Both the position numbers and the translations under genes were made by a program. From positions 22,569,486 to 22,633,485 of the forward strand of contig CM119267.1 in assembly GCA_051294375.1 (NCBI GenBank): a DNA stretch of 64,000 nucleotides, given 5' to 3'. This DNA comes from Paraspadella gotoi (taxonomy: Eukaryota > Animalia > Chaetognatha). The notes under the pieces are model-generated. The model saw nothing but the letters and a program-made list of their open reading frames with translations, was not told where the DNA came from and ran no database searches. Shown here one piece after another: positions 15,284 to 64,000 of this stretch. Numbering within the stretch: the stretch's first letter is position 1; each line of letters begins with the position of its first letter.

Positions 15284-15833
15284 GAGTAGAAAACAAATAT
15301 GACAAGAAAGAGCGAGAGCAACGAACGCAACATAAACGAGTTCGTGTCGGGAAGAAAATGAGAAAATAAAAAGAGAAAATTACGATTTAAATTGGGAGAT
15401 GGGATTGATGGGAACCAGTGGAGGGGATGTGAAGAAGCAAATGGCGACGGGATAGTTGACTTATTAAGCAGTAAGGTAGGGAATAGTTGATGGCAACAGG
15501 GAGTCGGCTTGCGAAGTAGCTGAGGGCAACGGAGAAGTCGCCTTGTAAAGTAGTTAACTTAATTGCCAGTGGAGAATGGCTTGTGAGATAGAAACGGCGG
15601 CTTAAGTAGCGGACAATTACTGGAGAGCAAACTTGTGATACAGCAAATTAAAACCGCAGAATTGGAAAGTCCACCGGTTAAAGAGGGGATACTACAAAAA
15701 GGACAGTAGAGAGATGCTCTTATTGTATTGTAATTGTTACGAATCGTGAGGGAGAGAGGGAAAAAGAGAGTAAGGGTAATATTTTATATCTCTAAGAGTA
15801 GAGAAAAACAAGGAGGAGGCATGCGAGGTAATT

Positions 15834-24077: not shown

Positions 24078-24368
24078 CGCGATGGGCGACGACACCATGG
24101 GTACAACGTGACACACGACGACGACGAGAAGTGTATAAAATTAAATAGAATTAAATGAGCGGACCCTGCTGCGTTACTAGAGTATAAACAAAAGTAATTC
24201 CATCATCGAGTATAACAGAATAATATTAAGAAAAAGACGCCAAGTCCACAACGAAACAAGAAGGAAAATTCACCATAAAATAAAGACTAAAAGAAACGTT
24301 AATGTAATTTTATTAAAGTCTTTTATTCGGCCTGGTCATCTTANNNNNNNNNNNNNNNNNNNNNNNNN

Positions 24369-31017: not shown

Positions 31018-31702
31018 ATGATTATTTCTTTAAAAACTTAGATTTTCACTTTCTTTTTTTCTTTCTTTCTTTATTTATCTACGACGACGACGAATGAATC
31101 AAATCAATGAGTTGGTGGCTTCACTTTTTCCCGGAAAGAGAGAGAGAGAGAGAGAGACGAAGACGAAGTCGATGAAGAAGAAGACGAAGAAGAAGACGTA
31201 AGTTGACTTCAGTTTGATCATATTTTTAAAAAAATTGAATAATAGTGAGATAATAATAAATAAAAGAAATGTTAGGAATGCATTAAAGATTGAGGTTATG
31301 AATTGTATCTAGAAAATCAGAGACGTCTTAGCTTTAGGGATGACAACGACGACGATGACAACTACGATGACAACGACAATTCTATGATGCAGAGGGAGGA
31401 AGACGAAGGATCGATTCCGGGGCGTCGATCTCTAACTTGCTCTTCCTCCTCCTTCGATCACTCGATCTCTCTCTCTCTCGCTCCTCCTCCTCCTTCTATC
31501 CTATCCTACCCATATAAAAAGGAACCTCACCCTCTCTGTCTCACTCTCTTTCGCAAATTTGACGAAAATTCTTTGACGAAATCGCGATATTTTTTCTCTC
31601 ATATATCTAAATTTAAATCCGACCTCTCGCTCTCCATCTTTCTCGCAATCGAAATTTTTTAATTTCATTTACGTCTGACTCCATCTCCATCTCGCTCTCA
31701 TC

Positions 31703-34700
31703 ATGCCTTTCATTCGTGAGAAGCGCCGCTTTCGTCACGACGTTCTTCCTTACACTTCGCATCGCCCCGTTTCCCCCTCTCGTCCTTTCCCGCCTCCAAC
31801 TGCCAACAACCCGTTGGTGAATGAACTTCTCAACATCATCCGGCCCGTGCTTCCTCGATTCTACCCAAAACGGGACGACTTGCCAAATAAAGTAAGACAA
31901 TGTAACACTTTTTTTTTGCTAAATAATAAATTTCACTACCAATTTTCTTTTTTATTTTTACTATAGATTTTAATAACAAAGTTTTTAATTTAATTTGTAC
32001 AACGATTTTATTTGTAACATAGCAGACATGTTTCGGCTCACAAATTCGAGCCTTCATCAGCGCTTTTACAGTTGTACCATGAATACTATAGATTTTAACT
32101 TTTAACTTTAACTGAATCGTGTTGTCAATCTAAAGCTTTTAAATATTTATTAATACTTACAAAATGAATACGATTTTTTTTGAAAAAGTGTTGATTTTTA
32201 AGAACGTATTTTGATAGAACTCGAAAAAGTTAATTTTTAATAAAATCAAATCCTTTGTTGTATAGTAAACGAGGATATATAAAGTTATATCGTAATAAAT
32301 TAAAGAAATTTAAAGTCTTTCTAAAATTTCGACTATTAGCAACGTATTTTTAGTTGTCTTGAATAAATATTTAAGCAATCATTTTCAAAAAAAATTTACA
32401 TTATACGTCTTGATTAATACATTCAATATTACTTGTCCTTTTTTACATTATTAAATTTTTTTTTGAAATCTTAAATTTTTTGATGGATTCTGATAGAACA
32501 TAAAAAGTTAAACAAGAAATATAATTACAGCTTTTAAAAACTCTTACGTCTTCTATGCGAAAATATAAAAAAACTGATAAAATCATCAAAAGATGATGAT
32601 GATGATTTTTTACGGTTTTTCTTATTTTTGACGCATTTATCATGAAAATATTTAAAAAAGAATTATACTTTGTGTAGACAACTTTTTATGAGCTATCTGA
32701 ATCTGTCTTAAAATTTAAAGATTCAAATTATTATTATTATTTACCATTATTTCCTATCTTCCTACAGCCTAAATCTCCCGAAACGCTTCAAGACGAACAG
32801 ACGGGAAATACGCCGTCTCATCCTCCCTCTCTCTCTTTTCCTCCTCGATTTTACATCCCTCGCATATTCGTGGAGAATTTTACTCAATGGGAAATTAAAG
32901 AATCTACAAATTTTAGTGAAATTCACTTCGCTGGCGTCAGTGCTCACAGGTAACGGGTGACTCACAGAATGGGAACTGACTTACAAAAAAAATTTCTATA
33001 TGAGTATCGATTATTTTATTAAAATATTAAATAAAGTGCTTTATTTTAAGGCCGATGATTACGAAATCAACGTATTTTTTAACATATAATAAACTGGGTT
33101 ATTAGACCATTTCTTTATTGTAAATTGTAACTAAAAATACAATTCAAACTGTTTTATAAAATTCTGATGTTTTCTAACTCTTGAATTCAAAAAATGAATT
33201 CGGCTATTTTAATAAAGAATGATAAAGCTTTTCTTTCAATGTCTATTTTGTTTTTTACTCCTTTTAATTCAAAAATAATAAAAACAGAATTACGTATTTC
33301 GTGAAATTTTAATAAAACGTTTAAATCTCATTTTTTAACACGATAAACATTTGTTTTTATTCGCAGGAAAAACGTTCAATTTCTCCGCAACGAAAAACTG
33401 GAGTTTGACGACGATAAAGGATTTTATAAATATCTTCGAGGAGATCACACCCTTTATAGATATGAAATACTCCAAGTCTTAGGTAAGTTCATTTGGAAAT
33501 TTAAAATTAACATACATGATTAAGGATATATCTCATATAGGCCGCAAGTAGCGTGCCCAAGGCCGTATCCGTTTATTAATTAATTAATTCATACTCTCTT
33601 CCCCCAGGCAAAGGCACGTTCGGCCAAATCTTCGAGGCCTTTGACTACAAGACATCCAAACGCGTCGCCATAAAAATTCTGCGTAAAGAAAAGAACGGCG
33701 TCCTTGCGGCCATCAACGAGGCCACTCGCTTCAAAATCCTGGCCAAAAGTGACCCCAACGACGTCGGCAACATCGTCCGTCTGTTGGACTCTGACCCAGA
33801 GTTCCGAGGTCATCCCATTCTGATCTTCGAACTCCTTGGTCAGAGTCTGCAAAGCCGTCTCGAGGAAGGGGGGTTTCAGGGATTTTCGGAAGAGGTCGCC
33901 AGAAGAATAGCTTTTTCGATGCTCTTGGGGATTAAGCATCTCCATGAAAACCAATTCGTCCACTGCGACCTAAAGCCGGATAATATGGCGCTGAAGGTGA
34001 CGATGGAGGATTGATTGGTTGAATGATTGAATAAACTAATGAATGATTTAATCGTGTATTTTTTAAACTTTTTACGTGATTGATCGAAGGATAAAGTATT
34101 TGATTGATTTATCAAATCGTTTGAATGATAGATTCATCGAGTAATTTACTTACTAAATCATTTTTCACTTTTCACACTAAATAAATTTTTCTAACAATTG
34201 ATCGATCTATTTTTAAATTATTTTCATAGGAAAAAGTTTAAATTGTGACTCAGCAACGAAACATGTCAGTTTATTAAATAAATTCGTTGCTGAGTCACAA
34301 TTTAAACTTTTTCCCATGTCCCAAACGCAACGAAAAGAAAGGAAATTATAACAATATTTTCATGAAATGTATCTTATTCAAAAACTGATTTTTGGTATTG
34401 ACACAATGTATTTTAAAACTAATTTACTCTCTCTCTCTCCTTTCAGCCCAACAACCTCGGACTCAAGATTCTCGATCTCGGATACTCTGTCATTTCCGGA
34501 CAAACTCCGTACGTCCAACTCCAGGCTCGGTACTACCGGTCACTAGAGGTCATTCTCGGCGCCGAATATGACAAGCCGATTGATATGTGGTCATTCGGTT
34601 GCATTTTGGCCGAACTGTTGACCGGTCAGCCTTTGCTGCGCGGCCGCGACGACCTGGACCAATTTGCCGTCATTAGCGAATTGCTGGGAATCATGCCGCG

Positions 34701-35097
34701 TGACCTGTTGATGCGCGGCGAGCGATCGCTTAGCTTCGTGCGCCGCGACGGTACGCCGCGTTATGCGACAAGCTCCTGCCTCTGCGGTGGTAACATCTGC
34801 CGTAGGAATCCGGACGGCACGTGCCATTGCGGTTGCGAGGATTGTGGCTGCGACGGGGAAAAACTCTGCCCTAACGGATACCGGATCCTTCGCCCGAGTT
34901 GGAACGTATTCGGAGATCGTCGCAACCCGCCTGGCTCGAAGGATATCTTCACCGAGTTGATGGGTCGTGCCACTCCGGTCATTATCGACCTCATTCTTCG
35001 CTGCCTGGAATTGGAGCCTCGAAAACGGATCACGATTGACGAGGCTTTGAGTCATTCTTGGTTCCATCAAATGAGCGAAGAAGAAAAGTCGATCTGA
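31703..35097 (+). CDS. Class-2 DYRK-like (DYRK2/3/4 family) protein kinase, divergent; exons 31703-31891, 32768-32949, 33367-33482, 33608-33996, 34447-35097
   Basis: Phase-consistent GT-AG junctions. NAPA-like 'WEIKESTNFSEIHFAG', DH box 'FDDDKGFY...GDH..YRYEIL', GKGTFG, VAIK, 'FELL', HCDLKPDN, 'IDMWSFGCILAELLTG.PL', 'G.PRY' CMGC insert, 'CLELEPRKRIT..EALSHSWF'. Confidence 0.9.
31974..32083 (-). mobile_element. 110-bp Penelope-like pLTR remnant carrying a hammerhead ribozyme, 15-bp TSD
   Basis: Flanked by tactatagattttaa at 31959-31973 and 32084-32098. Lies in kinase intron 1. Confidence 0.8.
32021..32064 (-). ncRNA. Minimal type-I hammerhead ribozyme
   Basis: Minus strand reads agcg CUGAUGA a ggcucg aauuug ugagcc GAAAC AU GUC ugcu: complete core, 6-bp helix II, palindromic ACAUGU helix III, and helix I agcg/ugcu. 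Confidence 0.85.
34228..34354 (+). mobile_element. 127-bp Penelope-like remnant with a 32-bp inverted 5' end and a half hammerhead, 9-bp TSD
   Basis: Perfect inverted arms at 34229-34260 and 34283-34314; GAAACATGTC at 34258-34267 followed by aataaattcgttg; tattttcat at 34219-34227 and 34355-34363. Confidence 0.7.
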
Positions 35098-36614
35098 CAA
35101 CAGGACAAGTTGATGATGTAGCGAAAATATACTGTGAATGTAGTCTTGATAATTAAGATTGTTAATGAACACATTAGTTTTTATCTTTATTATTGACTTT
35201 GCCAAAAGTTGAATATTCTCTCACTCTGATATTTATTCTCATATGTATAATGGCAATAATGATCTCTCAAGACAATGTATATTGTGATTTACTGTTTTAA
35301 TACAATATTTTTTGTATACTAATGTTACTTTGTTATGTACGCCTAAATTTTCGTAGTTATGCTAGTTTACGAATTTTCCAAATTCTCTTGTAGCGAATTT
35401 TTGTTATGTTTCTAGAAAAAATAAAAAAATTAAACACTATTGTTACTGTGAATACTTTCTTAGTTAGGATTTTTGTAATAACTAAAAAAATGTTTGTTTA
35501 AAAACAAGTTTAAGCAAACAATGCACAAAAATATTAATTCCAATCCATCCATCAAATCACGAGTAATTGATGTTTTTTTCTAAGGTGGGACGGACATAAT
35601 ATTTTTTGCATAATTTATATCATGTCAGAACATCGAATTATGATAAGTGACTGCCGCGACAATATTGAGGGGGCGGACCGACGGACCGCAAAGTGAATTA
35701 TAGAGCCGGAATCTGCTGCAAGCAGATCCAGCTAAAAAAAGTGAACAATTTCGAAAAATGTTTATTGAAAAGAAACGTTTGCTTAAAAGACAAAGTGAAA
35801 GATGATAAATAAACAAGTTTGAGCAAACAATGTCGGATCCGATGCCTACGATAATTTAGCGCTAATCACAATGTTTGAGCAGTAGGGTGGAGTGATAAAA
35901 AGATTGAGTGATTGAACATTATTTTTTTGTTGCCTATGGACATATAATTAATAAATTTTAAATCTTTAACAAAATTTTAGCATAATAGTATAGCAAATTC
36001 AATTATTTATGTAGTAATATCCTTATAAAATCGTCAAATTTTAAAATAATTTTTTTTGATTTTTAAGAACTGATTTGGATTCGCTGTAAAAAACTAAAAA
36101 ACTTTTATAAAATGTTATGATATTTTAATGTTTAGATCACAAAAAATGACTTAAAGCGTTTAACATATATAGTTTCTACTACAGAGAATAAAAAAGTCAG
36201 GAATTTTTACCTTTTTTCTTATTTTAAACATTGAAGATGACAGAATTTTTGATAAACATGTTTTATATTTTTGATTCAACTTTTAAAGAATCTGAATCTT
36301 TAAAAGTTTTATAAAAATTATTTTTAAAATTTACTATTTTATATGGATATTACTACAATATTATATATTTTTACTATTGTTCCCGAGATAATATGAACAA
36401 AAATATTTTTTGTATAGTTAATCATACTATCTCACATCTAAATATCATTGTTCGATCATTTCAAATAAAATTTTGTTCTGAGTGCTCACTCTATTGAGCA
36501 GTGCTTAATCTCGACTAATATTAACTCAATCCATATATCAATAGAATATCCTTTATTAAGTATTCAATATCCAATAATCATTGAGAAACGTGCATCAGCA
36601 TGACAGAGATAAGC

Positions 36615-36695
36615 AACAGAGCCAAGATGCAGTAGCAGCAGTAGTAGCGCCGAGATGCAGCAACAGCAGTAGAGCCGAGACGCAGCAACAGCTCA
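36615..36695 (+). repeat. Short degenerate tandem repeat (agagcc.aga.gcag.a.cagc, ~3 copies)
   Basis: Directly visible repeated units of ~24-27 bp. Confidence 0.6.
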
Positions 36696-37914
36696 AAGCT
36701 ACATAAAAGCTTAAAATTAATTAACATATTCAAGTAATTTCACAAATATCATTTAATACCTGATGGTCTCCGAGAAACTCTCAAAATTAAGAATTTACTC
36801 TCCTTTTATATACAAGGACAACATTATAACAACCAATGAGAGGAGAGTTCACATTTTGAGAATAAAATCAAAACATCTACTAGTTATTAATAAACAATGA
36901 AAGACCAGATATTCAAATTCAATGTATAAAATTCAACCAATTAGAGGCTTTAAACATAACTATTGGAGTCATTCAATTAAACTTTAAATTCAGATATTTG
37001 AGTCATTAAAAATAAAAGGTCAGGGCTCAATTAAGATAAAAATCATTATAAACTCTTTAACATCAGTATTCATTTTAGAAGCTGCAAAAGCTCGATTGCT
37101 GATGTTCCTGCCTCAACGTGTGTAATGTGTAATATTAATTAATTAATATTACAATAATAATTATAACATTATTAATACTCATTGAATTGATTAAATGTGA
37201 CCAAAGAATATTCGAGTTTGCGATTAAATTTTACGGCGCTGGAAAACCACGCCCCCCCCATTGGTCAGGGACGAGGCGAGACAACGAATGACTTCGACCA
37301 AGATGCGCCACGCCCACGCCGAATACGAACAGAGTGACCCAAACATTGATCATGATAATGAGGATTACGGTAAATGACGGGACAGTTAAGACTTAATAAG
37401 GATGACGATGTGATATAAGAGATAAATATGATTTGAATAAAAATATATTCAAAAAGTTAATCTCGAAAAAAGAATTGACAAAGGATGAAAAAAAATGGTC
37501 GAATTTACTTCTTGCGATTTTCTATTTTTGAAGCGAATGAAATTGAGTTGAGCCGCGAGCGATGACGTTTATCCCCCTAGGTGGTCTCCGTCTTCTCCTT
37601 ATTTACCTATTTATTTATTTTATTATTTACTTATTTATTCATTATTGTATTCATTTCATAATATTCTATTCTATTTATTTTTTATTTTACTTATTTTATT
37701 CTTTTGTTTGTTTGTTTATTTGTTCACTCTTCATTGAATCTATTCTTTTCATTATCAATACATTCATTTATTCCTCTATTAATATATTCATTCCATTCGT
37801 TCATTAGGATCACTCAACCATCCAGTTTGTTCAATTCAATTCACCTCCCGCGACGAAAGAAATGCTTTTTCGACCTGACATCGTGTTCTCTCTCTCTCGC
37901 TCTCTCGCTCTCTT

Positions 37915-37959
<45 letters not shown>

Positions 37960-38748
37960 CTGTCATCCGCCCGCGATTTTCATTTTCCGCGTCTGAGCGA
38001 AGCGTTTAATCTCTTGCGGTTCATGAGCGGAGAGCGGAATGAAAAAAAAATCATAAATCACGAAATGTGGGGCGGGGCCTCTCTTTTCTCTCACTCTCTC
38101 TCCGCCTCATCCTCTCTATATGTCGACTCTTGTTGCCTTAACCTCTCTTCTTTACCTCTTTGCTTTCTTTTTCTCACCTTCTCCGAGACTTCCTTCTTTA
38201 CACGTAAAGAAATGTAAAGAAAGTAATTACATCCTTTTCTCTCATACCCTACCTCCTATTCCTCTCTCCTCGTCTTTTCTCTTCCTTCTTCTCTCAATCC
38301 CAATTTCCTTTCTTACTTTTCTCCTCTCTCCTTTCCCTTTTGTTTTCTTTTCTCTCACTCTTCGAAACGACCGATGCAACGACGGTGACATATCTCCAAA
38401 TTAAAACAAATTAAAAAAAAAATTAAAACAATAAAAAAAAAAGGGAAAGCTAAATAACGTCAAACTAAAATAAAGAAACACGGCGATAAATTTTAACGGT
38501 GATTGCCTTTGCCAAAGGCTTTGGCTTCGTTTCTGTTGCCCGGAACAAGAAATATTTATAAAAAAAAAAAGTTTCGGTTCCTCCATGCCTTAACCTTAGA
38601 AAAAAAAAATAATAAGAAATAACTTCGCATAAATGCACATCTTGAACAATTATATTTTTCGTTCTAATAGTTCTACATCAAACAATATTTAGTTTAGCAA
38701 TTTAAAAATTAATATCTTCCGTAAAGCGAATTTGCCATTATTACAATA

Positions 38749-40062
38749 TTAGTTTGCCATCGTCGTCGTTGTAGATGTCCGTTCAACATTTTCGAATTGC
38801 ACTGTCTTCCTCGAGCGGGTCTTCCTGACGAGCCGCTTCATTTCTTCTTCAAAGTCTTCGTCGTCGTCGTCATCGTCTGTAAAAATGATTGAGGTGAAAA
38901 GAAAAAGAGAGAAATATGAAAAACTATAATAAATCAAAATGAAATGAATTCTTTAATAAGATGATATTCAGAAATGTTTATATCATTAGAAGTGTTAGAT
39001 TGGTTTAAACCCAAAAAATTTCAGCATAATGTAAATACTTATTTTAAATAGATTAGAAGTGTACAAAACATAGTGATATACAAGATTGGTTTAAACCCAA
39101 AACATTTCAGCTTAATGTAAATACTTATTTTAAATAGATTAGAAGTGTACAAACCATATGTGCAATATAGGATTAAACCCAAAGCATTTCAGCTTTATAT
39201 GATTAGATAATTTAAATACTAAAAGATGAGACCGACAGAACAAAAAATTACTTATAAATTGCTTCGCTAGTAAAAATTTAAAAATTAAAATAATATTTTT
39301 AACTTTATATAATTTTTTTACAATTTAGTTTGATACAGTAAAACAATTAAGTTTGCAATTTTCATAATAATAAAAAATGTTAATCTAAAATAATCTGACC
39401 CAAAATCTGTCTCTGATCCAACATGGCGACTACTTCGTCGACGAGCGACTTGAAGCTCTCCGAGTCGAGGACGAGACACTGCGTCACTTTGAGGGCGACC
39501 ACGGAGAACTTGATGAGACCTGGCTCGATGAGGAACTCTTCGCAGAGGATCTGGAGAGAGAGAGAGAGAGAGAGTGGGTGTGAAACAGTAACAGTACGAA
39601 ACACATTTCCGTTCGTTTTATTAGTGAACTTTTAGTTCAATCAGATTTAATTAGTCTAAATTCCAGTTTCCTTGTCGCTCCGAGACGCTGGGCGAGTTGT
39701 CCTTGACTTGCTACATTCTAGTAATTTTTCGACGTCGCTAACTTACGCTGTAATTTAATTAAATTTTTTTTATTTTAGTTTAAATAATTTCATGCATACC
39801 ATGATAAAACTTGAATCGTTATTGAGTTCATTTTCTCCTTTCGTGGATAATAAATGAAACAAATCAATCATTGTACGAAAGATCGAGCATGACTCCGGCA
39901 TTTCTCAGGCTAATTTTCCCGCCAAAAAGACCGGACGTTAGCGACCTTCGCTTCCGACACGTGAGAAAGTAAAGGAACGAAAGAAAAGATGGACGGTTGG
40001 AGCGGATTGATGGAATCGGGTATTGAATACCGTTAAACTGGAGCTGATGGCTTGAGCTTTTG

Positions 40063-40102
<40 letters not shown>

Positions 40103-40688
40103 GAGAGGCGGACAAAGACAACAGAAGATAGATTCGATATTACACCAAATAAAGGGAGCGAAATTGAAAGTTTAGTAGTTTTTTTTTTGCAGCTTTTTAG
40201 TCCATTTTTTTTTTCTGTTTTGGATAGCATCGGAATATTGGAAAAGAAATATTCGTCGTCAGCCTAATGTTTAATGGAAACTCGGTCAATGTTGGATGGA
40301 GAAGACGCACAATAAGGAAGAGTTAAAGAAATAAAAAGAGTTCAACAAAGAAGAGACAATGAAATTAGGATAGAAAGAAAGAAGGAATGAAAAAATAGGG
40401 AAAAAAAAAGACAAAGAAAAAATAAGGGGAAAAAAGGAATAGAATTAATAAATAAAAACAAATGCATAAAAAGAAATATAAAAGAAACAAATAAAAAAAG
40501 AAAAAGGCAAGTAATTGAAAAAAATGAGAGTGAGGGAAAACCCAAGTCGGTAGAAGAAAAAAAAAAATGCCGACTTCGCAGATTTACATCAGAAAGAAAG
40601 AAAAAAAGAAAGAAAAAAAAGAAGAAAAAGAAAAAGAAAGAAAGAAGAAAGAAAGAAAGAAAAAAAAAGAAAGAAAGAAAGAAAGAAA

Positions 40689-48100: not shown

Positions 48101-50313
48101 GTTTCGTGAGGGATAACTCGTTTTTGGTCACTCAGCCTGTCCCTTGGTCTGCCCTACTTACTTGTTTATAACTCCGGTAATATTGTATCTATTAAGTTCA
48201 TATTTGGTAGGAAGCGTGTGTTACTGACCGACATGAAGCCAGATCATAGACGCCACGATCAATAACACCGACCCGACGCATGCAACCCGGATGAACGTTT
48301 TCATGGCAAGCAAGGATTGGTTGAAAGTCATCATGACATTGTCCTGAAACTGTTGAACTGCTAATACTAAATGACCATGGAGATTGAGAAGACAGAGACA
48401 GAGCACTGCGACGTTACGCGGGTCTCGCGGCGGCCAGGGTAAGGCTGTTTCAACCTCTCGAACGATAAATGGTGTGGGGATCATGAGCAGAATGGTCAGC
48501 GGGAGATAACGAAAGCTGTGGACGTAATGGCGCCAGACTTCGAGAGGTTCCATGACGACTTGCTTGGAGGTTTGGTCGAAGTATCTGCAGGTAATAGAAT
48601 CAAATCAAGTGCTTTTCTTTTGACTTCGCTTAACGGGAAATTTAAAACATTTAAACTGATGAAGTTTAATGTTTTGATGTCATCATGAATACCTACTAAA
48701 TCTTGATTTAGAACAGGGTGGTCAAAAACTTTTAAAAAAATTCAACATTTTTCTAATAGAGATTTTCCGTTCAAATCTGACTGCCCAACTTTACAAACGA
48801 CATTGGGAGAAATTCCGGTAGAAAACAGTTGTAAAAACGCACGATTCCGATAGCGTTGCATCTCAAGAGGTCGACTTTTTGTTCTTGTAGCATTTGATAA
48901 AAAATTTACTATCAAACAAACGAGGAGAAATGGACCACTCATCTCCGGAGGATATTCTAACCTCGTTTTTACTATAGGATGAAAGTGAAATTTCACTTTT
49001 TTAAAATTACAAATGTTACTTCAAATTATGAGATCCCAAAACCCTCGTGTCCCTAGAGCTCGACTTTTTTTGCTGTTATGTGGTGTTATGTGGTGTTGCA
49101 CATAAGTGGCGTCGTCGTCCTTTGTTGTCGTCGTCGGCGTTCCAAATTATTGATCGCCTTTTTGATGATTAAATTTTAGTGTATGAAGCTGAAAATTTAT
49201 ATACAGCTTCTCATCATCAATGTCCTTAAAATTGGGCCAGGACAGTTATTAAATATGTCTTGTTTACGTTTTATTAAAACAAACAAATATCCTCTATTTT
49301 ATTTTTATGTCTCCTTCTCTCTCTCTTTGTAAATCGCTTCAGCGATTTACTACCCCCGAAAATTGTTACAATTTTGGGCCGCTCCCTATTTTTTTTTTTT
49401 CAATTTTTTTTTTTTTTTTCCGTCTTGTAACTTTTGCTACCTACTACGAGGATTTGTCTCTTACTTTTTCTACTATGAGGATTTTCCTTTACTTTCTATA
49501 GAAATTTGCTCTATGTCTGCACCCACTAGATCTTCACTTGCATCGCTTTACACAAAATAGCAAATTTTTGCCTGTTTGGTCTTAATAAAACAGATGGCTC
49601 CACAAACAAAAGAGCATTTTTCTGAAACAAAAGAACAGTCCATTAAATCTTCTTTGTATTTTTACCCTATTCTACTAGAGGGCTTTACAAAGCAGGAGGT
49701 CTTTTGTAAGACAAAGGAACATTCATTTGCTCTTCTGTCTGCACCCACTAGATCTTCACTTGCACCTGCTCTTCAACAAAATAGCAAGTGTTTTTTTTCG
49801 ATTTTTTATCTTAAATATTTTTTAAAATAATGTTTTTTATATTTTTGCAAGTATTTTTTTCCTATTCTATGAAAATATGCAAATTACCTGTTTTACTATT
49901 ATCGAGCCAGATCGCCGTTGCTGATTATTTTTTTCTTCAAAAACTTTTTTATCGCCATTTATTCCACGCTTTTTTCTCAATACAAAATCCCCAAATTTTA
50001 CATGTGAAGAATATCTTACTTGAACCTGGATTTTGTGGCCGTTGCAGGTCAACAGTAAACAATGTCAAGGAACATGACCTAATAACGCGTTTGGGTGGCA
50101 CTGAAACTTTACATGTTAAAAAAAAGTCAACTTGACCGAGATCACGCCGCCGTTGCGAGGCAACGGATAACCGATATAAACGAGAGTGGACCTAATATTG
50201 CGTACGTTGCGGGAAAACTCTTCTCTCTCTCTCTCTTTCTCTTTTAAAAAAAAATTATTATTTTTTTTCACTGCAGCGTCTGTACAGCTCTTTCTCTCTC
50301 TCTCTTTCTCTTT

Positions 50314-53806: not shown

Positions 53807-56800
53807 TTCTCTCTTTTTTTTTTCAATTTTTTTTTCCGTCTTTTTGTAACTTTTTCTACCTACTATGAGGATTTGTCTCTTACTTTTTCTACTATGAGCA
53901 TTTTCCCTTTACTTTATATAGAAATTTGCTCTTCTGTCTGTACCCACTAGATCTTCACTTGCATTGCTTTACACAAAACAGCAAATTTTGTTTGTTTTGG
54001 TCTTAATAAACCAGATGGCTCCACAAACAAAAGAGGTGTTTTTAAACAAAATAGCAATGAAATTTAGTTTTAGTATATCTTTTCTGAAACAAAAGAACCA
54101 GTCCTATTAAATCTTCTTGTATTTTTACCCTATTCTACTAGGGGCTTTACAAAACAGAAGGCTTTTTGTAAGACAAAGGAACATTCAAAAATTTTATCTG
54201 AACCCACTAGATCTTCACTTGCACCTGCTCTTCAACAAAATAGCAAATGTTTTTTTAATTTTTTTAAACTAAATATTTTTTAAAAATAATTTTTTTTTAT
54301 ATTTTTGCAAAACATGAAAATATGCAAAATTATCTGTTTTACTATTTTCTTGTTGCTTGCATTGTGAATGGCCTTCTTTTGCCGCATGCAACATAATCTT
54401 AAAAGTATAATAATAAAACCTTACTATCAAAAAAAATTAATAAAAAGTATTATAATCTAATTTGCATATTGCAGTAAATCATGATTAAATGGAAATTCAA
54501 CCAAAAAATAATTGAATCGATATGAAACAAAGAAAATAAATACACATTTTAACTTCCTCACTGCCTCACTAATGGAACTTGATAACTAGATAGTTGAAAG
54601 TTAAAAAATTATGTAAGTTGAAAAAAATTATGCAAAGTTAAAAAAATTATACCAAATTAAAAAAATTATGCAAGTTTGAAAAAATGATGCAAGTTGAAAA
54701 AAATGATGCAAGTTGAAAAAAAATGATGCAAGTTGAAAAAATGATGCAAGTTGAAAAAATGATGCAAGTTGAAAAATGATGCAAGTTGAAAAAAATGATG
54801 CAAGTTGAAAAATGATGCAAGTTGAAAAAAATGATGCAAGTTGAAAAAATGATGCCAAGTTGAAAAAATGATGCAAGTTGAAAAAGATGCAAGTTGAAAA
54901 AATGATGCAAGTTGAAAAAATGATGCAAGTGGAAAAAATGATGCAAGTGGAAAAAAATGATGCAAGTGGAAAAAAATGATGCAAGTTGAAAAAATGATGC
55001 AAGTTAAAAAATGATGCAAGTTGAAAAAATGATGCAAGTTGAAAAAATGATGCAAGTTGAAAAAATGATGCAAGTGGAAAAAAATGATGCAAGTGGAAAA
55101 AATGATACAAGTGGAAAAAAATGATACAAGTGGAAAAAATGATGCAAGTGGAAAAAATGATGCAAGTGGAAAAATGATGCAAGTTGAAAAAATGATGCAA
55201 GTTGAAAAAATGATGCAAGTTGAAAAAATGATGCAAGTTGAAAAAAATGATGCAAGTTGAAAAAATGATGCAAGTTGAAAAAAATGATAAATACTAAAAA
55301 AATAATGCAAGTTAAAAATTGTTACAAGCTGAAAAATAATACAAGTTAAAAAAATTGATACAAGCTTGAAAAATAATACAAGTTAAAAAAATGAAAAAGT
55401 TAAAAAAAATCATGCAAATTTAAAAAAATATTATTATTGCCGCAGTAACAGTTCAGTTTAAGCCTTTGAAAGCGATTTACATGTATTGGCGCAGCACTGG
55501 TTTCTCTTATAATTATATGACTATGTAGCTATCTCTCTCTCTTTTCCCCAGTGCTGATTCATCGGAAAAAAAATGAGTCTGCAGCTGGTTCTGCAGGGGC
55601 TCTTTCTTTTTCTCTCTTTTCTCCTGCTGCTTCTGCTGCTGCTTTTTGATTTCTTTTTTTTTCTGGTCTCTCTCTCTTTCTCTCTTTCTCTACTCTCTCT
55701 CTTTCTTTCTCCTTTTTTTTTCTTTTGCGTCTGCTGATCAGCTTTATTTGACAATTGAAAAAGGTGTTTTTTTCTCTTTTAGAAACTGTAAGTGCTAACT
55801 TAATTTTCCTCGCGTACTTTATTTCTTCTTTAATTGACAATCGCAAAATTTTCCTTTCTGTTTATAAACTTAATTTTCTTTTCTCAAATTTAATTTTTTT
55901 TAAATTTTAGTATCAAAATTGTTTCTTTCTTTCCTTTCTATTTTCTTCCTTTCTATTCTTTCTTTTCTTTCTATTCTTTGTTTCCTTTCTATTCTTTTCT
56001 TTCCTTTCTATTCTTTCTTTCCGTTCTATTCTTTCTTTATATTTATTCTTTTCTTATTTTTCTTTCTGTTTATAAATTAATTTTCTTTTTCAAATTTGAT
56101 TTTTTTTAGTATCAAAATTTCTGTTGTCAATCCAGATTTTTTTTATGCGATTGTGACGATCCTTATGCTTTTAAGATTTTTTTTCTTTTAGTATTGACCA
56201 ATTTTTTCATACTTAAACCACCATTGGTAAAGTGAATTTTGTCCAGTTTTCATTGCATAATTTTTATTTAAAAGAAATTAAAAGGAAGGTTGAGCAGAAA
56301 AAAAATGATTTTTCCTAATATCTTTTGAAGGGAACAAAGCATAAAGGCGATGGTAAATTTGGCAATAGTATCAAATGAGCCATAATCTAGGGCAATACAG
56401 ACTAGAAATTCAACCTAGAGTAGCAAAATTATAATATTTAACATGATAAAATAATAAATTAACTTTTTAATGATTCTGAAAGAAAAAGGCTAAATTGTAA
56501 ACTAGTAAAAATTTAGTTTTTTGGATAAAAAAATTTTTTTTTTCAATGAAATATTTACTTGTCTGATTTTATAAGCATGCTTACAAAATTCTACAAAATA
56601 TTTTTCGCCCCCGTCACAGCCTAAGTATTTACCTTTTTTTCCCACCAGCAAAAGTACAACATGTATTTTATGTAGAGAACAGGGATGTTTACTGAAAGGA
56701 GCTGGCATGACGTTCAAACCTTCTTCACTTTGATGTTATTTTCAATAATAAATTGGCGAATTTTTTTAATTATTTAGCTCTCACAGGCTTCACAAAGACA

Positions 56801-57737
56801 TTACATTTTCATAATATCCTAATGTTAATGTAATTCATTATATTTTTTTATGAAGGAAAAAAAAACTAGTGGAAGAAAAATTTAGACGTGGGTACCATGC
56901 TTCAATCAAAAATTGTTAAATTTCTTAATTATACTTTCATATTTTTTAAATTTTAAAATCAAATTAAAATAAGCTCGATAAAAACCTATCTACACAAAGT
57001 ATAATTTTTTTAAATGTTTTTTTTTAAGGAGGTTAAAAATAAGAAAAACATGACAAATAATCTATACTAATTATATTCTTGTTTAACATTTATTTTCTAT
57101 CAGAATCCATCAAAAAAATTTAAAATTAATTTTTTTCTATATAGTAAATAATAATTTTAATTAGTAGTACCCTCAGAAGAAAGCATTTTTGACAAATATA
57201 TTTTAAACACTATAATCTATGCTCATATAGCATTTAAATTTCATCGGCTATTGGGTAATACAAATTCAATATCTTTCATCTAACCCGGATATGGATGCGC
57301 ACGAAAATTTCGACAAAAAGGAGAAAATACAGCAGACAAAGAAAGGCTATAGTACATGTGGCGTCTGTATTAATCAGTGGCCGTACAAAGCGAACACCCT
57401 TCTTCCGACTGAACCTTAAGGAAATGACCTAAAAAAAATTGCGGAAATAACTGTCATTAAAGCAAATATTAATGTATTAATATCAAAAATATATAATATT
57501 GCAAAAAGGCCGTGATGAACGTTTCCTAAACTAACCAACATGTGGGTGCGCGAGCCAAACCACGACTTTCAATCATGGCGGTCAACGCTAAGGAAGACGC
57601 CGATGCCAGTATGAGTCGGATCAAAGATTCTGTCGCTTCCGTCACGAAGGCGACGATAGCAGCCGACATTTTTGTCAAATTCAGTCCCCGATCCTAATAG
57701 CATCCAAAGATTGCGCCGAATTTCGGGCAGACAATTA
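38749..57737 (-). CDS. 6TM cyclic-nucleotide-binding-domain ion channel (KCNH/HCN/CNGK superfamily), 5'-incomplete; exons 57737-57536, 57408-57285, 48584-48229, 48007-47777, 47255-47129, 44322-44007, 39550-39400, 38876-38749
   Basis: Phase-consistent splicing from 48584 to the stop. Pre-S1 'IFDP', S2 'VEIFVRIHSG|YFDQ', 'VWRHYV', pore 'SATFTGYGEVTPVTMIER', C-linker 'FNRKMEDVKQ...R|YMRF...LPFSLRQEV', CNBD 'FHLPGDVIL...LYVYKGEVDL'. The first two exons carry indels, and the start codon was not found. Confidence 0.85.
40566..40935 (+). repeat. (GAAA)n-rich tract punctuated by three copies of 'gccgacttcgcagatttacatc'
   Basis: Motif at ~40569, ~40760 (degenerate) and ~40914. Confidence 0.7.
41850..42050 (+). 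repeat. ~22-bp tandem repeat (tgatgcgatgataaccaaa.at), about 8-9 degenerate copies
   Basis: Directly visible; its right end is shared with ~27150-27205. Confidence 0.75.
43218..43395 (+). mobile_element. tRNA-derived SINE-like repeat (tRNA-like head 43247-43323)
   Basis: Acceptor-like stem gcggcca/tggtcgc, A-box-like tggtgcagaaag, B-box ggttctagccc, anticodon region ct-ccc-aa (Gly-like) with a small duplication. A second copy lies at 23294-23550. Confidence 0.7.
46386..47005. mobile_element. MITE with terminal inverted repeats; partial second copy at ~47420-47680
   Basis: Left end agtaaggcatagtaaaa; right end ttttactacgccttact; long internal palindromic AT-rich body. Confidence 0.65.
49328..55500 (+). 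mobile_element. ~6.2-kb Helentron/HINE-like composite insertion in a channel intron
   Basis: Absent from the second copy (59755-59760 joins the flanks at a T-run). Sub-terminal IRs tgtaaatcgctt (49328-49339) and aagcgatttaca (55470-55481), an adjacent 5' IR partner agcgatttac (49341-49350), a short degenerate 3' hairpin, no TSD. Confidence 0.65.
54600..55420 (+). repeat. 17-19-bp minisatellite (AAAAAATGATGCAAGTTG), roughly 35 well-conserved units plus degenerate edges
   Basis: Directly visible; a degenerate inverted copy lies at 52205-52430. Confidence 0.95.
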
Positions 57738-58199
57738 CTATAGTTGGACGAAATACTTCATTTAAAATAGGGAGTGCCCCACTCAATGGGGTGAGTCAAA
57801 AATTAGAATAATTACATGCTCAAACGAAAAATTTATACATTTAGCTCATAAAAAGTTGCTCTACACAAAGTATAATTCTTTTTTTAAATATTTTCATGAT
57901 AAGTGAGCTCAAAATAAGAAAACCGTAAAAAATCATCATCATCATCATCTTTCGATGATTTTATCATTTTTTTAATATTTTCACACACACTTTTTTATGC
58001 TCTATCAAGAATCCATCAAAAATTTTAGAGCATTTCATAAACACATATAACTACTGCCTTATATATTAAAAAACTAATATTTAATGTATTAAACACAGAC
58101 GTATATTGTGAAATTTTTTTGGGGAAAATTGATTGCTTAAATATTTAGTCAAGACAACTAAAAATACTTTGCCTAATAGTGAAATTTAATACTCTAGTC

Positions 58200-59079: not shown

Positions 59080-60217
59080 NNNNNNNNNNNNNNNNNNNNN
59101 NNNNCTGTCATCATGAATACCTACTAAATCTTGATTTAGAACAGGGTGGTCAAAAACTTTTAAAAAAATTCAACATTTTTCTAATAGAGATTTCCGTTCA
59201 AATCTGACTGCCCAACTTTACAAACGACATTGGGAGAAATTCCGGTAGAAAACAGTTGTAAAAACGCACGATTCCGATAGCGTTGCATCTCAAGAGGTCG
59301 ACTTTTTGTTCTTGTAGCATTTGATAAAAAATTTACTATCAAACAAACGAGGAGAAATGGACCACTCATCTCCGGAGGATATTCTAACCTCGTTTTTACT
59401 ATAGGAATGAAAGTGAAATTTCACTTTTTTAAAATTACAAATGTTACTTCAAATTATGAGATCCCAAAACCCTCGTGTCCCTAGAGCTCGACTTTTTTTT
59501 GCTGTTATGTGGTGTTATGTGGTGTTGCACATAAGTGGCGTCGTCGTCTTTGTTGTCGTCGTCGGCGTTCCAAATTATTGATCGCCTTTTTGATGATTAA
59601 ATTTTAGTGTATGAAGCTGAAAATTTATATACAGCTTCTCATCATCAATGTCCTTAAAATTGGGCCAGGACAGTTATTAAATATGTCTTGTTTACGTTTT
59701 ATTAAAACAAACAAATATCCTCTATTTTATTTTTATGTCTCCTTCTCTCTCTCTTTTCTCTTATAATTATATGACTATGTAGCTATCTCTCTCTCTTTTC
59801 CCCAGTGCTGATTCATCGGAAAAAAAATGAGTCTGCAGCTGGTTCTGCAGGGGCTCTTTCTTTTTCTCTCTTTTCTCCTGCTGCTTCTGCTGCTGCTTTT
59901 TGATTTCTTTTTTTTTTTTCTGTCTCTCTCTCTTTCTCTCTTTCTCTCTCTCTCTCTTTCTTTCTCTTTTTTTTTCTTTGCGTCTGCTGATCAGTTTATT
60001 TGACAATGAAAAAGGTGTTTTTTTTCTTTTAGAAACTGTAAGTGTAACTTTAATTTTCCTCGGTACTTTATTATTTTTTTAATTGACAATCGCAAAATTT
60101 TTCTTTCTGTTTATAAATTAATTTTCTTTTCTCAAATTTAATTTTTTAAATTTTAGTATCTGATTTGAAAATGAAACAAAGTCTTGTACAGCAAACGATT
60201 TATATTTTATTTATTGT

Positions 60218-60262
60218 TACAGGAAAAAGTTCGGCTTTTCATTCAAGCTTCATCAGTTGCTT
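60218..60262 (-). ncRNA. Degenerate hammerhead ribozyme (left inverted arm)
   Basis: Minus strand reads gcaa CUGAUGA agcuugaaugaaaagcc GAAC uuuuuc cugu. The core has indels relative to the right-arm copy, possibly sequencing error. Confidence 0.6.
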
Positions 60263-61406
60263 TGACAATTTCACAGTTTTCATGTTTTTCCAAATTAACT
60301 TGGAAGAGAGAGAGAGAGAGAGGATGAGAGAGAGAGAAAAGAGAGAGAAGAAATGGCCAACAAAGATAGAGACAGGACAGTGTGGTGAAATTGTGAGGAC
60401 AGGTTTTAAGTTAGTAGAGAGAGAGAGAGAGAATGTGAGGAAAAGAAATTAAAAATTTGTGAGATGAGGAGAGAGAGACAGAGAAGCAGAGGTTAATCAT
60501 TGGTAAGAGAAGTTACTATTAGAAAATGTACCCAACAATGTTATAAATTTTAATAAATAAGGACAGACTTAAACAAACTAAAAATATTTAAATTAATCAG
60601 ATAAATAATTAATAAAGGAGTGAGTTTAGATGGAAATTGAAATAAAGATGTTGAGGATAGGTTAGTGAAAGAAGTAGAGAGGAAAAAAATAAGAAAAAAA
60701 AAACGCTCAAAATGAGCGGCCCCCCCCGGGTCAACAATGGGGGATGCTGACGATTGTGGTCGGTCATTGGTTTGTCATAGCTGAGAGGCTATTGTGGGTG
60801 GAGTGCGAACATTGGACGGGTCCGGTAGAGACCCAGGCGGAAAGAGCCAAGTGGCACTCGGAATAATATCTCCAGCCTGATAAACCTGCCGACGCCCTCG
60901 TCTCGCCTTGGCGAGGGGGCGGTGTGTCTGATTTTTCGAGTTTTTGCAACGGTTTGAGCTCATTTTGAGCTTTCTTTTATCTTTTTTTTTCTTACTCTTT
61001 CACTTACCTTATTCCCTCAAACATCTATTCATTTTCATCTTAAACTTCCACTCCTTTATTAAGTATATTTATTCTGAATTAATTAAATATTTTAGTTTGT
61101 TAAGTTCTGTCTATTTATTTAAATTTATCATTGTTGTTATCATTTTCTAATTTGAACTCTTCTTACCAAATGTTAAACCTCTGCTTTTCTCGTGTCCTCT
61201 CTCCCTCATCTTCACAAAATTAATTTCTTTTTCCCTCACCATTCCTCTCTCTCTCTCTACTAAACTTAAAACCCGTTCTCACATTTCACCACTGTCCTGT
61301 CTCATATCTTTGTTGCCATTTCTTCTCTCTATTCTCTCTCTCCTCTCTCTCTCTCTTCTCTCTTCCAAAAGTTTAATTTGGGAAAACATGAAAAAACTGG
61401 AATTGT

Positions 61407-61452
61407 CAAGCACTGATGAAGGCTTGAATGGAAAAGCCGAAACTTGTCTTGT
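61407..61452 (+). ncRNA. Minimal type-I hammerhead ribozyme (right arm)
   Basis: CUGAUGA (61413-61419) a ggcuu gaauggaa aagcc GAAAC (61439-61443) UU GUC uugu. Confidence 0.8.
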
Positions 61453-64000
61453 ACAATAAAATAAAATCGTTGCTGTAACAGGACTTTGTTTCCTTCAATT
61501 TTCAATTACCTAAAACAAAACGAAGAAAAGTTTCAATTCACAATTTTTAGTATCAAAATTGTTCTTTCTTTCCTTTCTATTCTTTCTTTCCTTTCTATTC
61601 TTTCTTTTCTTTCTATTCTTTGTTTCCTTTCTATTCTTCTTTTCCTTTCTATTTCTTCTTTCCGTTCTATTCTTTCTTTATATTTATTCTTTTCTTATTT
61701 TTCTTTCTGTTTATAAATTAATTTTCTTTTTCAAATTTGAATTTTTTTTAGTAGTTCAAAATTTGTTGTCAATCCAGATTTTTTTATGCGATTGTGACGA
61801 TCCTTATGCTTTTAAGATTTTTTCTTTTTAGTATTGACCAATTTTTTCATATTAAACCACCTGGTAAAGTGAATTTGTCTATTTCATTGCATAATTTTTA
61901 TTTAAAAAGAAATTAAAAGAAAGGTTGAGAGAAAAAAATGATTTTTTTCTAATATCTTTTTTGAAGGAACAAAGATAAAGGGGGATGAAATTGGCAATAG
62001 TATCAAAATGAAGCCATAATCTTAGGGCACATACAAATACAATTTTAGATATTTTTGCTGAAACCTTTACAGAGTGAGTGTCAAATTATAATTAATTTTA
62101 AAACTAATGATACCCCATAAAAATAAATGAAAATTAAATTTTCTTTTAATGATTCTGAAAGAAAAAAGGCTAAATTGTAAACTAGTAAAAATTTAGTTTT
62201 TGGATAAAGAAAATTTTTTTTTCAATTAAATATTTACTTGTCTGATTTTATAAGCATGCTTACAAAATTCTACAAAATATTTTTCGCCCCGTCACAGCCT
62301 AAGTATTTACCTTTTTTTTCCACCAGCAAAAAGTAAACATTATTTTATGTTAGAGAACAGGGATGTTTACTGAAAGGAGCTGGATGACGTTCAACTCTTC
62401 ACTTTGATGTTATTTTCAATAATAAATTGGCGAATTTTTTAATTATTTAGCTCTCACAGGCTTCAAAAGACATTACATTTTCATAATATCCCAATGTTAA
62501 TGTAATTCATTATATTTTTTTATGAAGGAAAAAAAACTAGTGGAAAAAAAAATTAGAGTGGGTACATGCTCAATCAAAAAATGTTAAATTCTTAATTATA
62601 CTTTCATATTTTTTTAAATTTTAAAATCAAATTAAAATAGCTGATAAAAACCTGTCTACACAAAAATAATTTTTTTAAAATGTTTTTATTTTAAGGAGGT
62701 TAAAAATAAGAAAAACTACAAAATAATTATACTAATTATATTTCTTGTTAACATTTTATTTTCTATCAGAATCCATCAAAAAAAAATTTAAAATTAATTT
62801 TTTTTTCTATATAGTAATATAATAATTTTAATTAGTAGTAACCCTCAGAAGAAAGCATTTTGACAAAAATATATTTTAACACTAAATAGCATTTAAATTT
62901 CATCGGCTATGGGTAATACAAATTCAATATCTTTCATCTAACCCGGAATGGATGCGCACGAAAATTTCGACAAAAAGGAGAAAATACAGCAGACAAAGAA
63001 AGGTATAGTAAGTGGCGTCTGTATAATCAGTGGCCGTAAAGCGAACACCCTTCTTCCGACTGAAACCTAAGGAAATGACCTTAAAAAAATTGGGAAATAA
63101 CTGTCATTAAAGCAAATATTAATGTATTAATATCAAAATATTAATATTGCAAAAAGCCGATGAACGTTTCCTAAACTAACCAACATGTGGGTGGCGAGCC
63201 AAACCACGACTTTAATCATGGCGGTCAACGTAAGGAAGACGCCGATGCCAGTATGAGTCGGATCAAAGATTCTTCGTTCCGTCACGAAGCGACGATAGCA
63301 GCCGACATTTTTGTCAAATTCAGTCCCCGATCCTAATAGCATCCAAAGATTGCGCGATTTCCGGGCAGAAATTCTATTAGTTGGACGAAATACTTCATTT
63401 AAAATAGGGGTAGCCCCACTCAATGGGGTGAGTCAAAAATTTATAATAATTACATGCTCAAACGAAATTTTATACATTTAGCTCATAAAAAGTTGTCTAC
63501 ACAAAGTATAATTCTTTTTTAAATATTTTCATGATAAGTGAGTCAAAAATAAGAAAAACCGTAAAAATTCATCATCATCTTTCGATGATTTTATCATTTT
63601 TTTAATATTTTCACACACACTTTTTATGCTCTATCAGAATCCATCAAAAAATTTTAAGATTTCCAAAAAAAAAATTTTATAATGTAAAAAACTAATATTT
63701 AATGTATTAAACAAGACGTATAATGTAAATTTTTTTGGAAAATGATTGCTTAAATATTTAGTCAAGACAACTAAAAATACTTTGCTAATAGTCGAAATTT
63801 TATATTATCTCTGGAGTTGGTCCCTATTTAAACGACCTTTGGAATGTATTTGATTAAAAACAAAGATCGTGATTCCATAACGAATCGTTCAGCACACCTA
63901 ACTTGAATGCGAAGAAAATTAAAAATAGGCGCAGAACTTATTCCAAGACGCCATTGCAACAAGTTTAGCTGGTTCTTTGGTAGCAAAAGAAAAGTGCATT

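What the first reader, a model, noticed from the sequence alone, without database searches (positions are those of the whole stretch)
31959..32098. 110-bp ribozyme-only insertion with a perfect 15-bp TSD in the DYRK intron
Seen: the insert is little more than an intact minimal hammerhead (antisense to the kinase) plus an AATAAA-containing tail, bounded by tactatagattttaa. Known: the palindromic ACAUGU helix III is the feature proposed to let PLE minimal hammerheads cleave as dimers. Inference: either an extreme 5'-truncated TPRT product or a minimal mobile ribozyme unit.
Basis: partly seen in the sequence, partly recalled or inferred. Interest (0 to 1): 0.75.

Follow-up and report, generated by a model that had tools for sequence, protein, structure and literature searches.

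The report
Penelope retrotransposon stub carrying hammerhead motif
A 110-base insertion flanked by an exact 15-base duplication sits in an intron of a predicted kinase gene; it is most likely the dead-end tail piece of a Penelope-type jumping gene, and its small hammerhead RNA motif is a known passenger that is probably inert here, so the finding is real but ordinary.

Summary
In detail: a 110-bp insert (31974-32083) lies between exact 15-bp repeats in predicted intron 1 of a DYRK-like gene. It carries an intact minimal type I hammerhead on the opposite strand. It is not unique. Related sequence is abundant in runs from three studies. The window holds three more relatives: a 1.38-kb head-to-head pair with its empty site visible, and a stub in intron 4 cut inside the ribozyme core. 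These copies end about 55-100 nt past the core, but their 5' ends differ. In metagenome contigs the same core ends reverse-transcriptase/GIY-YIG ORFs of Penelope type, and those copies show 11-16-bp duplications and continuous 5' truncation. Best reading: a 5'-incomplete terminal stub of a Penelope-like element (PLE). The ribozyme is a passenger: single, antisense to the gene and predicted to misfold as a monomer. A fixed run-off end just upstream of the core is not excluded; a self-propagating mini-element is unlikely. The AATAAA is at chance level. Solo minimal hammerheads from truncated PLEs are published (PMC4209133), and this scan reported similar stubs in other genomes. No parent ORF was found here, and cleavage is untested.

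The parts
31959..31973 (.). Target-site duplication, left copy (at the element's 3' end)
   Evidence: Exact 15-mer; multi-copy cover starts right after it
31974..32083 (-). 110-bp insert: terminal stub of a PLE-type family (copy A)
32021..32064 (-). Minimal type I hammerhead: stem I AGCG 32064-32061 / UGCU 32024-32021; CUGAUGA 32060-32054; extra A 32053; stem II 32052-32048 / 32039-32035; GAAA 32034-32031; palindromic helix III ACAUGU 32031-32026; C17 32025; predicted cut between 32025 and 32024
   Evidence: Sequence; pair probabilities stem II 1.0, stem I 0.65-0.87, helix III 0.0 as a monomer
31997..32077 (-). Predicted extension of helix I: UGUAA 32070-32066 with UUACA 32017-32013; GUACAAC 32077-32071 with GUUGUAC 32003-31997; AAUAAA in the bulge
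   Evidence: Pair probabilities 0.91-1.0; 10 of 1000 shuffles of the 5' 16 nt fold as well
31974..32024 (-). 51-nt tail after the predicted cut, ending at the family's short 3' end (56 nt past the GAAAC of the core); no poly(A)
32068..32083 (-). 5'-terminal 16 nt shared with few or no other copies
   Evidence: Summed depth 153.5 in 32071-32079 and 27.8 (flank level) in 32080-32088; the closest contigs in X5, X6 and X9 stop at 32065-32067
32084..32098 (.). Target-site duplication, right copy (at the element's 5' end)
   Evidence: junction bridged by X1 record 3, 32046-32373
31703..35097 (+). Host DYRK2/3-like kinase gene, predicted exons 31703-31891, 32768-32949, 33367-33482, 33608-33996, 34447-35097; the insert lies 67 nt into intron 1 (31892-32767)
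34225..34353 (+). Relative D in intron 4: head-to-head stub. A 36-nt inverted copy of the short end, then a forward copy that starts inside the core (GAAACATGTC at 34258) and runs to about 90 nt past it
   Evidence: (nhmmer E 0.01)
60161..61541 (.). Relatives C (core 60256, minus) and B (core 61413, plus): 1.38-kb head-to-head pair with ends 68 and 98 nt past the core; flanked by an approximately 13-nt duplication; empty site at 55902-55914

Best explanation
The 110-bp insert is likely a dead-end, 5'-incomplete copy of the terminal repeat of a Penelope-like retroelement, and its hammerhead motif is probably a passenger that is inert at this site. Inferred steps: (1) a PLE protein supplied in trans nicked an AT-rich site on both strands 15 nt apart; (2) it primed reverse transcription at the family's fixed internal start about 55 nt past the ribozyme core; (3) copying stopped after about 94-110 nt, just beyond the ribozyme; (4) repair duplicated the 15 nt. 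Shown: the duplication, the intact core, related sequence in many contigs, a shared 3' end, different 5' ends among window relatives. Predicted: a single copy cannot form helix III, and its most stable fold pairs core nucleotides A6-U7-G8 with the CAU of helix III. The motif is antisense to the kinase pre-mRNA, so it would not cut it.
For: (a) Summed contig depth in run X2 rises from 27.5 to 775.5 in the bin holding the 3' end, peaks at 15630 on the core, and falls to 1871, 153.5 and 27.8 before the 5' end is reached. X1 shows 36085-40636 against 70-120. Summed depth is not a copy number. (b) One X1 contig runs unbroken from 32046 across the 5' junction at flank-like depth, while left-flank contigs break 28-29 nt into the insert; assuming 31-mer unitigs, this is a private 5' end and a shared 3' end (inference). 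(c) The four window copies have four 5' ends: A at -23, D inside the core, B and C about 550 nt or more upstream. D shows that an intact ribozyme is not needed for insertion. (d) B/C and D are head-to-head pairs with one short and one long end, the PLE 'tail' signature (PMC8557442, PMC3846280 passages; two RT start sites in PMC11167929). (e) In metagenome loci the same core ends or follows GIY-YIG-like ORFs (L018, L065, L053), and the L018 ORF matches 766-833-aa proteins with an RT domain at about 50% identity. (f) 19 of 109 eligible other-locus hits have exact flanking repeats of 11-16 nt against 0-6 in 20 mismatched controls; inserts are 167-758 bp. In the largest family 5' junctions run from 0 to 748 nt, 15 of 51 lie within 40 nt of the core, and 22 of 23 inverted pairs have one short and one long end. 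(g) Single minimal hammerheads gave no cleavage in PMC4209133, and ribozyme cleavage was not needed for insertion in vitro in PMC11167929.
Against: No parent RT/endonuclease ORF was found for this family: tblastn of 3 endonuclease fragments and 6 full-length PLE proteins against the window gave nothing significant, no genome is held, and B/C are non-coding over about 550 nt. The PLE link therefore rests on architecture and on other organisms' families. Loose ends pile up at 32061-32065 in all five runs laid, which fits a fixed 5' end as well as subfamily divergence in stem I. No empty allele of this site was seen. The left junction has only 28-29 letters on the insert side, below the tool's 31-letter bridging rule, and sample S1 may be the assembly's source. 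The Pfam GIY-YIG scores were below cut-off (E 0.0011 and 0.021; none for L065). Published PLE duplications in PMC3846280 are 8-10 bp, shorter than 15. 110 bp is the shortest of the 20 inserts. The 5'-terminal 16 nt are unexplained.
Confidence: 0.65

Rival explanations
1. Same PLE stub, but its 5' end is fixed by run-off: the template RNA would begin 2-7 nt upstream of the core, giving a discrete stub of about 94 nt (31974-32067), to which 16 nt of junction sequence were added in this copy.
For: Alignment ends pile up at 32061-32065 with heterogeneous loose ends (agreement 0.48-0.60) in X1, X2, X5, X6 and X9. The closest contigs sharing A's tail stop at 32065-32067 and continue unlike for 13-66 letters. 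Earlier scan notes proposed this for other genomes (unchecked leads, not support).
Against: Equally strong pile-ups lie at 32025-32026, where subfamilies differ in the other strand of stem I, so divergence alone can explain both. B and C extend about 550 nt upstream. The comparison family shows no pile-up at 2-7 nt (3 of 51 junctions within 0-9 nt). The 16 nt pair well with the tail (10 of 1000 shuffles), which random filler would not.
Confidence: 0.22
2. A discrete non-autonomous mini-element or retrozyme monomer that is transcribed, cleaves itself as a dimer, may circularise and is copied as a unit of about 110 nt.
For: The insert nearly coincides with one folded domain (nt 7-87); the core and palindromic helix III are intact; retrozyme monomers and consensus lengths from 51 bp are reported (bioRxiv 10.64898/2026.07.22.740005, parts 1-3 read).
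Against: Cover is not flat across the insert and the 5' end is private. Neither end lies at the predicted cut (51 and 59 nt away). There is no tandem unit here and no go-back joint in the contigs laid. D inserted without a functional core.
Confidence: 0.1
3. Chance repeat or assembly artefact in AT-rich intron DNA.
For: 4 of 300 shuffles give a repeat of 15 nt or more; parts of the window look error-rich; no Rfam hit.
Against: X1 contigs match both flank-insert boundaries with 0-1 differences; the repeat coincides with the edge of multi-copy cover; across 21 core-bearing representatives stem I pairs in 56 of 63 positions against a shuffle mean of 29.4.
Confidence: 0.02

Closest known systems
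Minimal type I hammerheads (min-HHR) in pseudo-LTRs of metazoan PLEs, mostly solo (Cervera and de la Pena 2014, PMC4209133; parts 1-2 of 4 read)
   Same: Extra nucleotide between 9 and 10.1, G10.1-C11.1, 4-bp helix I, palindromic 15.2-16.2 and loop 3; occurs singly and as opposite-strand pairs; the paper ties solo motifs to truncated PLEs.
   Different: Stem II is 5-6 bp (7-8 in the Schistosoma motifs); a predicted extended helix I; the parent ORF was not found here.
EN+ PLE insertions with inverted 5'-truncated copy and 30-40-bp tail (PMC8557442, PMC3846280, passages; PMC11167929, parts 1-2 of 4 read)
   Same: 5' truncation, AT-rich target, no poly(A), target-site duplication; window relatives B/C and D are head-to-head with one short and one long end.
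   Different: The duplication is 15 bp (8-10 bp in the Adineta examples read); copy A has no recognisable inverted partner.
Metazoan non-LTR retrozymes (PMC7229834, passages; bioRxiv 10.64898/2026.07.22.740005, parts 1-3 of 5 read)
   Same: Non-coding, type I hammerhead, low GC, PLE-related; monomers in introns are common.
   Different: No tandem units, a minimal rather than canonical motif, and no circular-RNA evidence.

Membership tests
PLE minimal hammerhead | Complete core (CUGANGA, GAAA, NUH), type I topology | tested here: met
PLE minimal hammerhead | Unpaired nucleotide 5' of stem II; G10.1-C11.1; palindromic helix III/loop 3 | tested here: met
   A 32053, G32052-C32035, ACAUGU; ACATGT also in 10 of 125 metagenome hits
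PLE minimal hammerhead | No cleavage as monomer, weak cleavage as dimer | not testable with these tools
   Prediction only: helix III probability 0.0 in the monomer; ACAUGU self-duplex -4.6 kcal/mol
EN+ Penelope-like element | Parent ORF with RT and GIY-YIG domains attached to this terminal repeat in the same genome | tested here: inconclusive
   None in the 64-kb window; no genome held; shown only for other families with the same core
EN+ Penelope-like element | Fixed 3' end, variable 5' truncation | tested here: met
   four window copies only, genome-wide 5' ends not resolved
EN+ Penelope-like element | Inverted pairs with an optional 30-40-bp tail at one end | tested here: met
   Relatives B/C (98 vs 68 nt) and D; copy A itself has only the short end
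EN+ Penelope-like element | Target-site duplication at an AT-rich site, no poly(A) | tested here: met
   B/C with empty site
Non-LTR retrozyme | Tandem units, each with a hammerhead | tested here: not met
   Single unit; self-blast finds no adjacent copy; other loci of the genome not seen
Non-LTR retrozyme | Monomer-length linear and circular RNA | not testable with these tools
   Only contigs were available
Rfam hammerhead families | Match to a covariance model | tested here: not met
   0 hits at gathering score over the window; no hammerhead family at E up to 10 in 31700-32400

The most novel reading that the evidence does not exclude
A subfamily of ribozyme-sized (about 95-110 nt) non-autonomous PLE derivatives with a defined 5' end, in which the folded hammerhead domain is itself the template the PLE enzyme mobilises and copies cleave only by pairing in trans through ACAUGU: a minimal mobile ribozyme unit.
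Probability: 0.1. Interest if true: 0.6.

Novelty: new member of a known kind. Interest (0 to 1): 0.15.

Why it matters
As found, it matters little. It is one more solo PLE minimal hammerhead, useful as a clean and probably recent insertion marker. The window does show in one place a duplication-flanked stub, a stub cut inside the core and a head-to-head pair with its empty site, which suits PLE copying from both nicked strands without needing the ribozyme. If genome-wide ends proved fixed just upstream of the core, they would map the start of the element's RNA; if the unit propagated itself it would be among the smallest ribozyme-bearing mobile elements.

Tried and rejected
No genome is held, so the genome-wide end plot could not be made. 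Rfam gave nothing. No RNA holder was listed; X9 is only guessed to be RNA, so expression is not addressed. No empty-site joint was seen in X1, X5, X6, X9 or X2; X5, X6 and X9 have no cover on the flanks, which proves nothing. A subfamily pattern found 0 viral contigs. No PLE protein match in the window. AATAAA as a poly(A) signal was rejected. An apparent cluster of 5' junctions at the edge of the extended helix in the comparison family (7 in the 30-39 bin against 1-5 in other bins up to 100 nt) was dropped as unconvincing. That script removed 4 of 70 aligned copies as duplicates, 3 probably wrongly; 75 family hits were selected. Short duplications at 120-, 142- and 153-bp inserts (L077, L016, L064; 8-9 nt) have no control and are only suggestive. 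Five of 26 rows lacking an NUH were dropped before the stem I count, and the rows are related. Reading the 5' 16 nt as an inverted copy of the tail was rejected: it needs a 9-nt skip and several mismatches. First exon models had wrong coordinates and were corrected. The PDB search was uninformative. Lunse et al. (PMC5785218) is not held and is known only through PMC6765202. The host taxon was not determined (best kinase identity 46%, over half the query). No supplements were read; HHR family alignments in them could hold closer relatives.

Full report
Observation. The 15-mer TACTATAGATTTTAA stands at 31959-31973 and 32084-32098, exact and not extendable, around 110 nt. Shuffles of the intron gave such a repeat in 4 of 300 trials; the stronger argument is that the left copy ends where multi-copy cover begins. 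On the minus strand the insert reads as a minimal type I hammerhead with a complete core, an extra A before stem II, helix III ACAUGU and C17 at 32025. Folding predicts stem II and stem I, two further helices extending stem I, and no helix III in the monomer; instead A6-U7-G8 pairs with the CAU of helix III. The whole-insert z-score is a modest -1.74. Rfam does not detect it. The AATAAA is at chance level (686 of 2000 shuffles). A five-exon GT-AG model gives a 508-aa DYRK2/3-like kinase with the insert antisense in intron 1; exon 1 is predicted only.

Family in this organism. No genome is held. Nine runs from three studies hold the region; five were laid, all as contigs. Summed depth over the element is hundreds of times that of the flanks in X1 and X2, and related contigs occur in X5, X6 and X9; this shows abundance, not a copy number. 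In X2 the profile is 27.5 (flank), 775.5 (31972-31980), 15630 (core), 1871 (32062-32070), 153.5 (32071-32079) and 27.8 (32080-32088). X1 record 3 bridges the 5' junction unbroken from 32046 to 32373. Left-flank contigs stop 28-29 nt into the insert, short of the tool's bridging rule. I infer a shared 3' end and a private 5' end. Sample S1 may be the assembly's source, and no empty allele was seen. Against simple random truncation, loose ends pile up at 32061-32065 in all five runs; they also pile up at 32025-32026, so subfamily differences in stem I can explain both.

Relatives in the window. B (61413, plus) and C (60256, minus) form a head-to-head inverted repeat of about 550 nt in a 1.38-kb insert that is absent from the duplicate segment at 55902-55914, with an approximately 13-nt duplication. 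Their ends lie 98 and 68 nt past the core. D in intron 4 has 36-nt arms 97% complementary, and its forward copy begins at GAAACATGTC, without CUGAUGA and stem II. Its similarity to A-C is weaker (nhmmer E 0.01) and its candidate duplication is only 9 nt. Four copies thus have four 5' ends, and one inserted without a working ribozyme.

Comparison. In L018 and L065 an endonuclease-like ORF reads through the core itself, and L053 has one just upstream. Pfam GIY-YIG scores were under cut-off, but L018 matches 766-833-aa RT-bearing proteins at about 50% identity. Exact flanking repeats of 11-16 nt were found for 19 of 109 eligible hits (two are one insertion), against 0-6 in 20 controls, with inserts of 167-758 bp; ours is the shortest. 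In the large family, 3' ends are bimodal (34 short, 28 long, 2 other), 5' junctions spread from 0 to 748 nt with 15 of 51 within 40 nt of the core, and 22 of 23 inverted pairs have one short and one long end. Stem I pairs in 56 of 63 positions over 21 of 26 representatives, against 29.4 in shuffles (related rows).

Mechanism. Shown: duplication, motif, abundance, end pattern. Inferred from PLE biology (PMC11167929, parts 1-2 read: both strands cut and extended, AT-rich target, two internal RT starts, ribozyme cleavage dispensable, cleavage protein-assisted): a PLE protein acting in trans made staggered nicks, copied from the short start site and stopped after 94-110 nt. The motif is single and antisense, so it is probably inert; single minimal hammerheads did not cleave in PMC4209133. 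The parent ORF was not found in the window. The 5'-terminal 16 nt pair with the tail better than chance (10 of 1000 shuffles) yet are nearly private, which is unexplained. Truncation (0.65) and run-off at a fixed RNA start (0.22) are both PLE-stub readings, together about 0.87; a self-propagating mini-element gets 0.10.

Known status. PMC4209133 states that most minimal hammerheads occur singly and probably derive from truncated PLEs, with opposite-strand pairs also seen. PMC8557442 and PMC3846280 (passages) describe 5' truncation, inverted copies, the 30-40-bp tail and solo pLTRs. Retrozymes need tandem units (PMC7229834, passages; bioRxiv 10.64898/2026.07.22.740005, parts 1-3). I make no claim that a 110-bp case is absent from print; four answered literature searches plus one on intronic cases were run. 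Earlier scan notes describe similar stubs in other genomes, none by sequence match, and notes on this genome concern twister elements. Verdict: real, a new member of a known kind, interest 0.15.

Noticed in passing
window 34225-34353: Head-to-head stub D in kinase intron 4, same sense as the gene, truncated inside the hammerhead core; 36-nt arms 97% complementary; candidate 9-nt duplication at 34219 and 34355.
   Followed up: partly
window 60161-61541: 1.38-kb head-to-head pair of hammerhead-bearing repeats, non-coding, with a unique GC-rich 240-nt spacer (60718-60957) and an empty site at 55902-55914.
   Followed up: partly
window 55501-58191 and 59755-63804; 48678-49328 and 59106-59756; gap 59080-59104: Multi-kb duplicated segments at 89-99% identity with many 1-nt indels beside an assembly gap; possibly two haplotypes or error-rich sequence assembled in tandem. 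A similar pair flanks the gap at 24344-24368.
   Followed up: no
window 34447-35097: The kinase is divergent (about 40% to DYRK2/3) and carries a cysteine-rich insert in the C-lobe.
   Followed up: no
window 32322-32695: Another very abundant repeat in intron 1 (summed depth up to about 1,000,000 in X1), with relatives at 57842-58187 and 63479-63802.
   Followed up: no
window 31768: The X1 contig reads T where the window has C, in predicted exon 1: an allele or an assembly error; that contig also runs into the insert.
   Followed up: no
L018:1496-1531; L065:1501-1536: The hammerhead core doubles as the last codons of the endonuclease ORF in this family.
   Followed up: partly
L007:1501-1534: The core pattern falls inside an unrelated low-complexity ORF among bacterial-looking genes and lacks the cleavage triplet; probably a chance match.
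   Followed up: no
window 3146-3535: Minus-strand frame resembling a Gypsy-type polymerase remnant (recalled resemblance, not searched).
   Followed up: no
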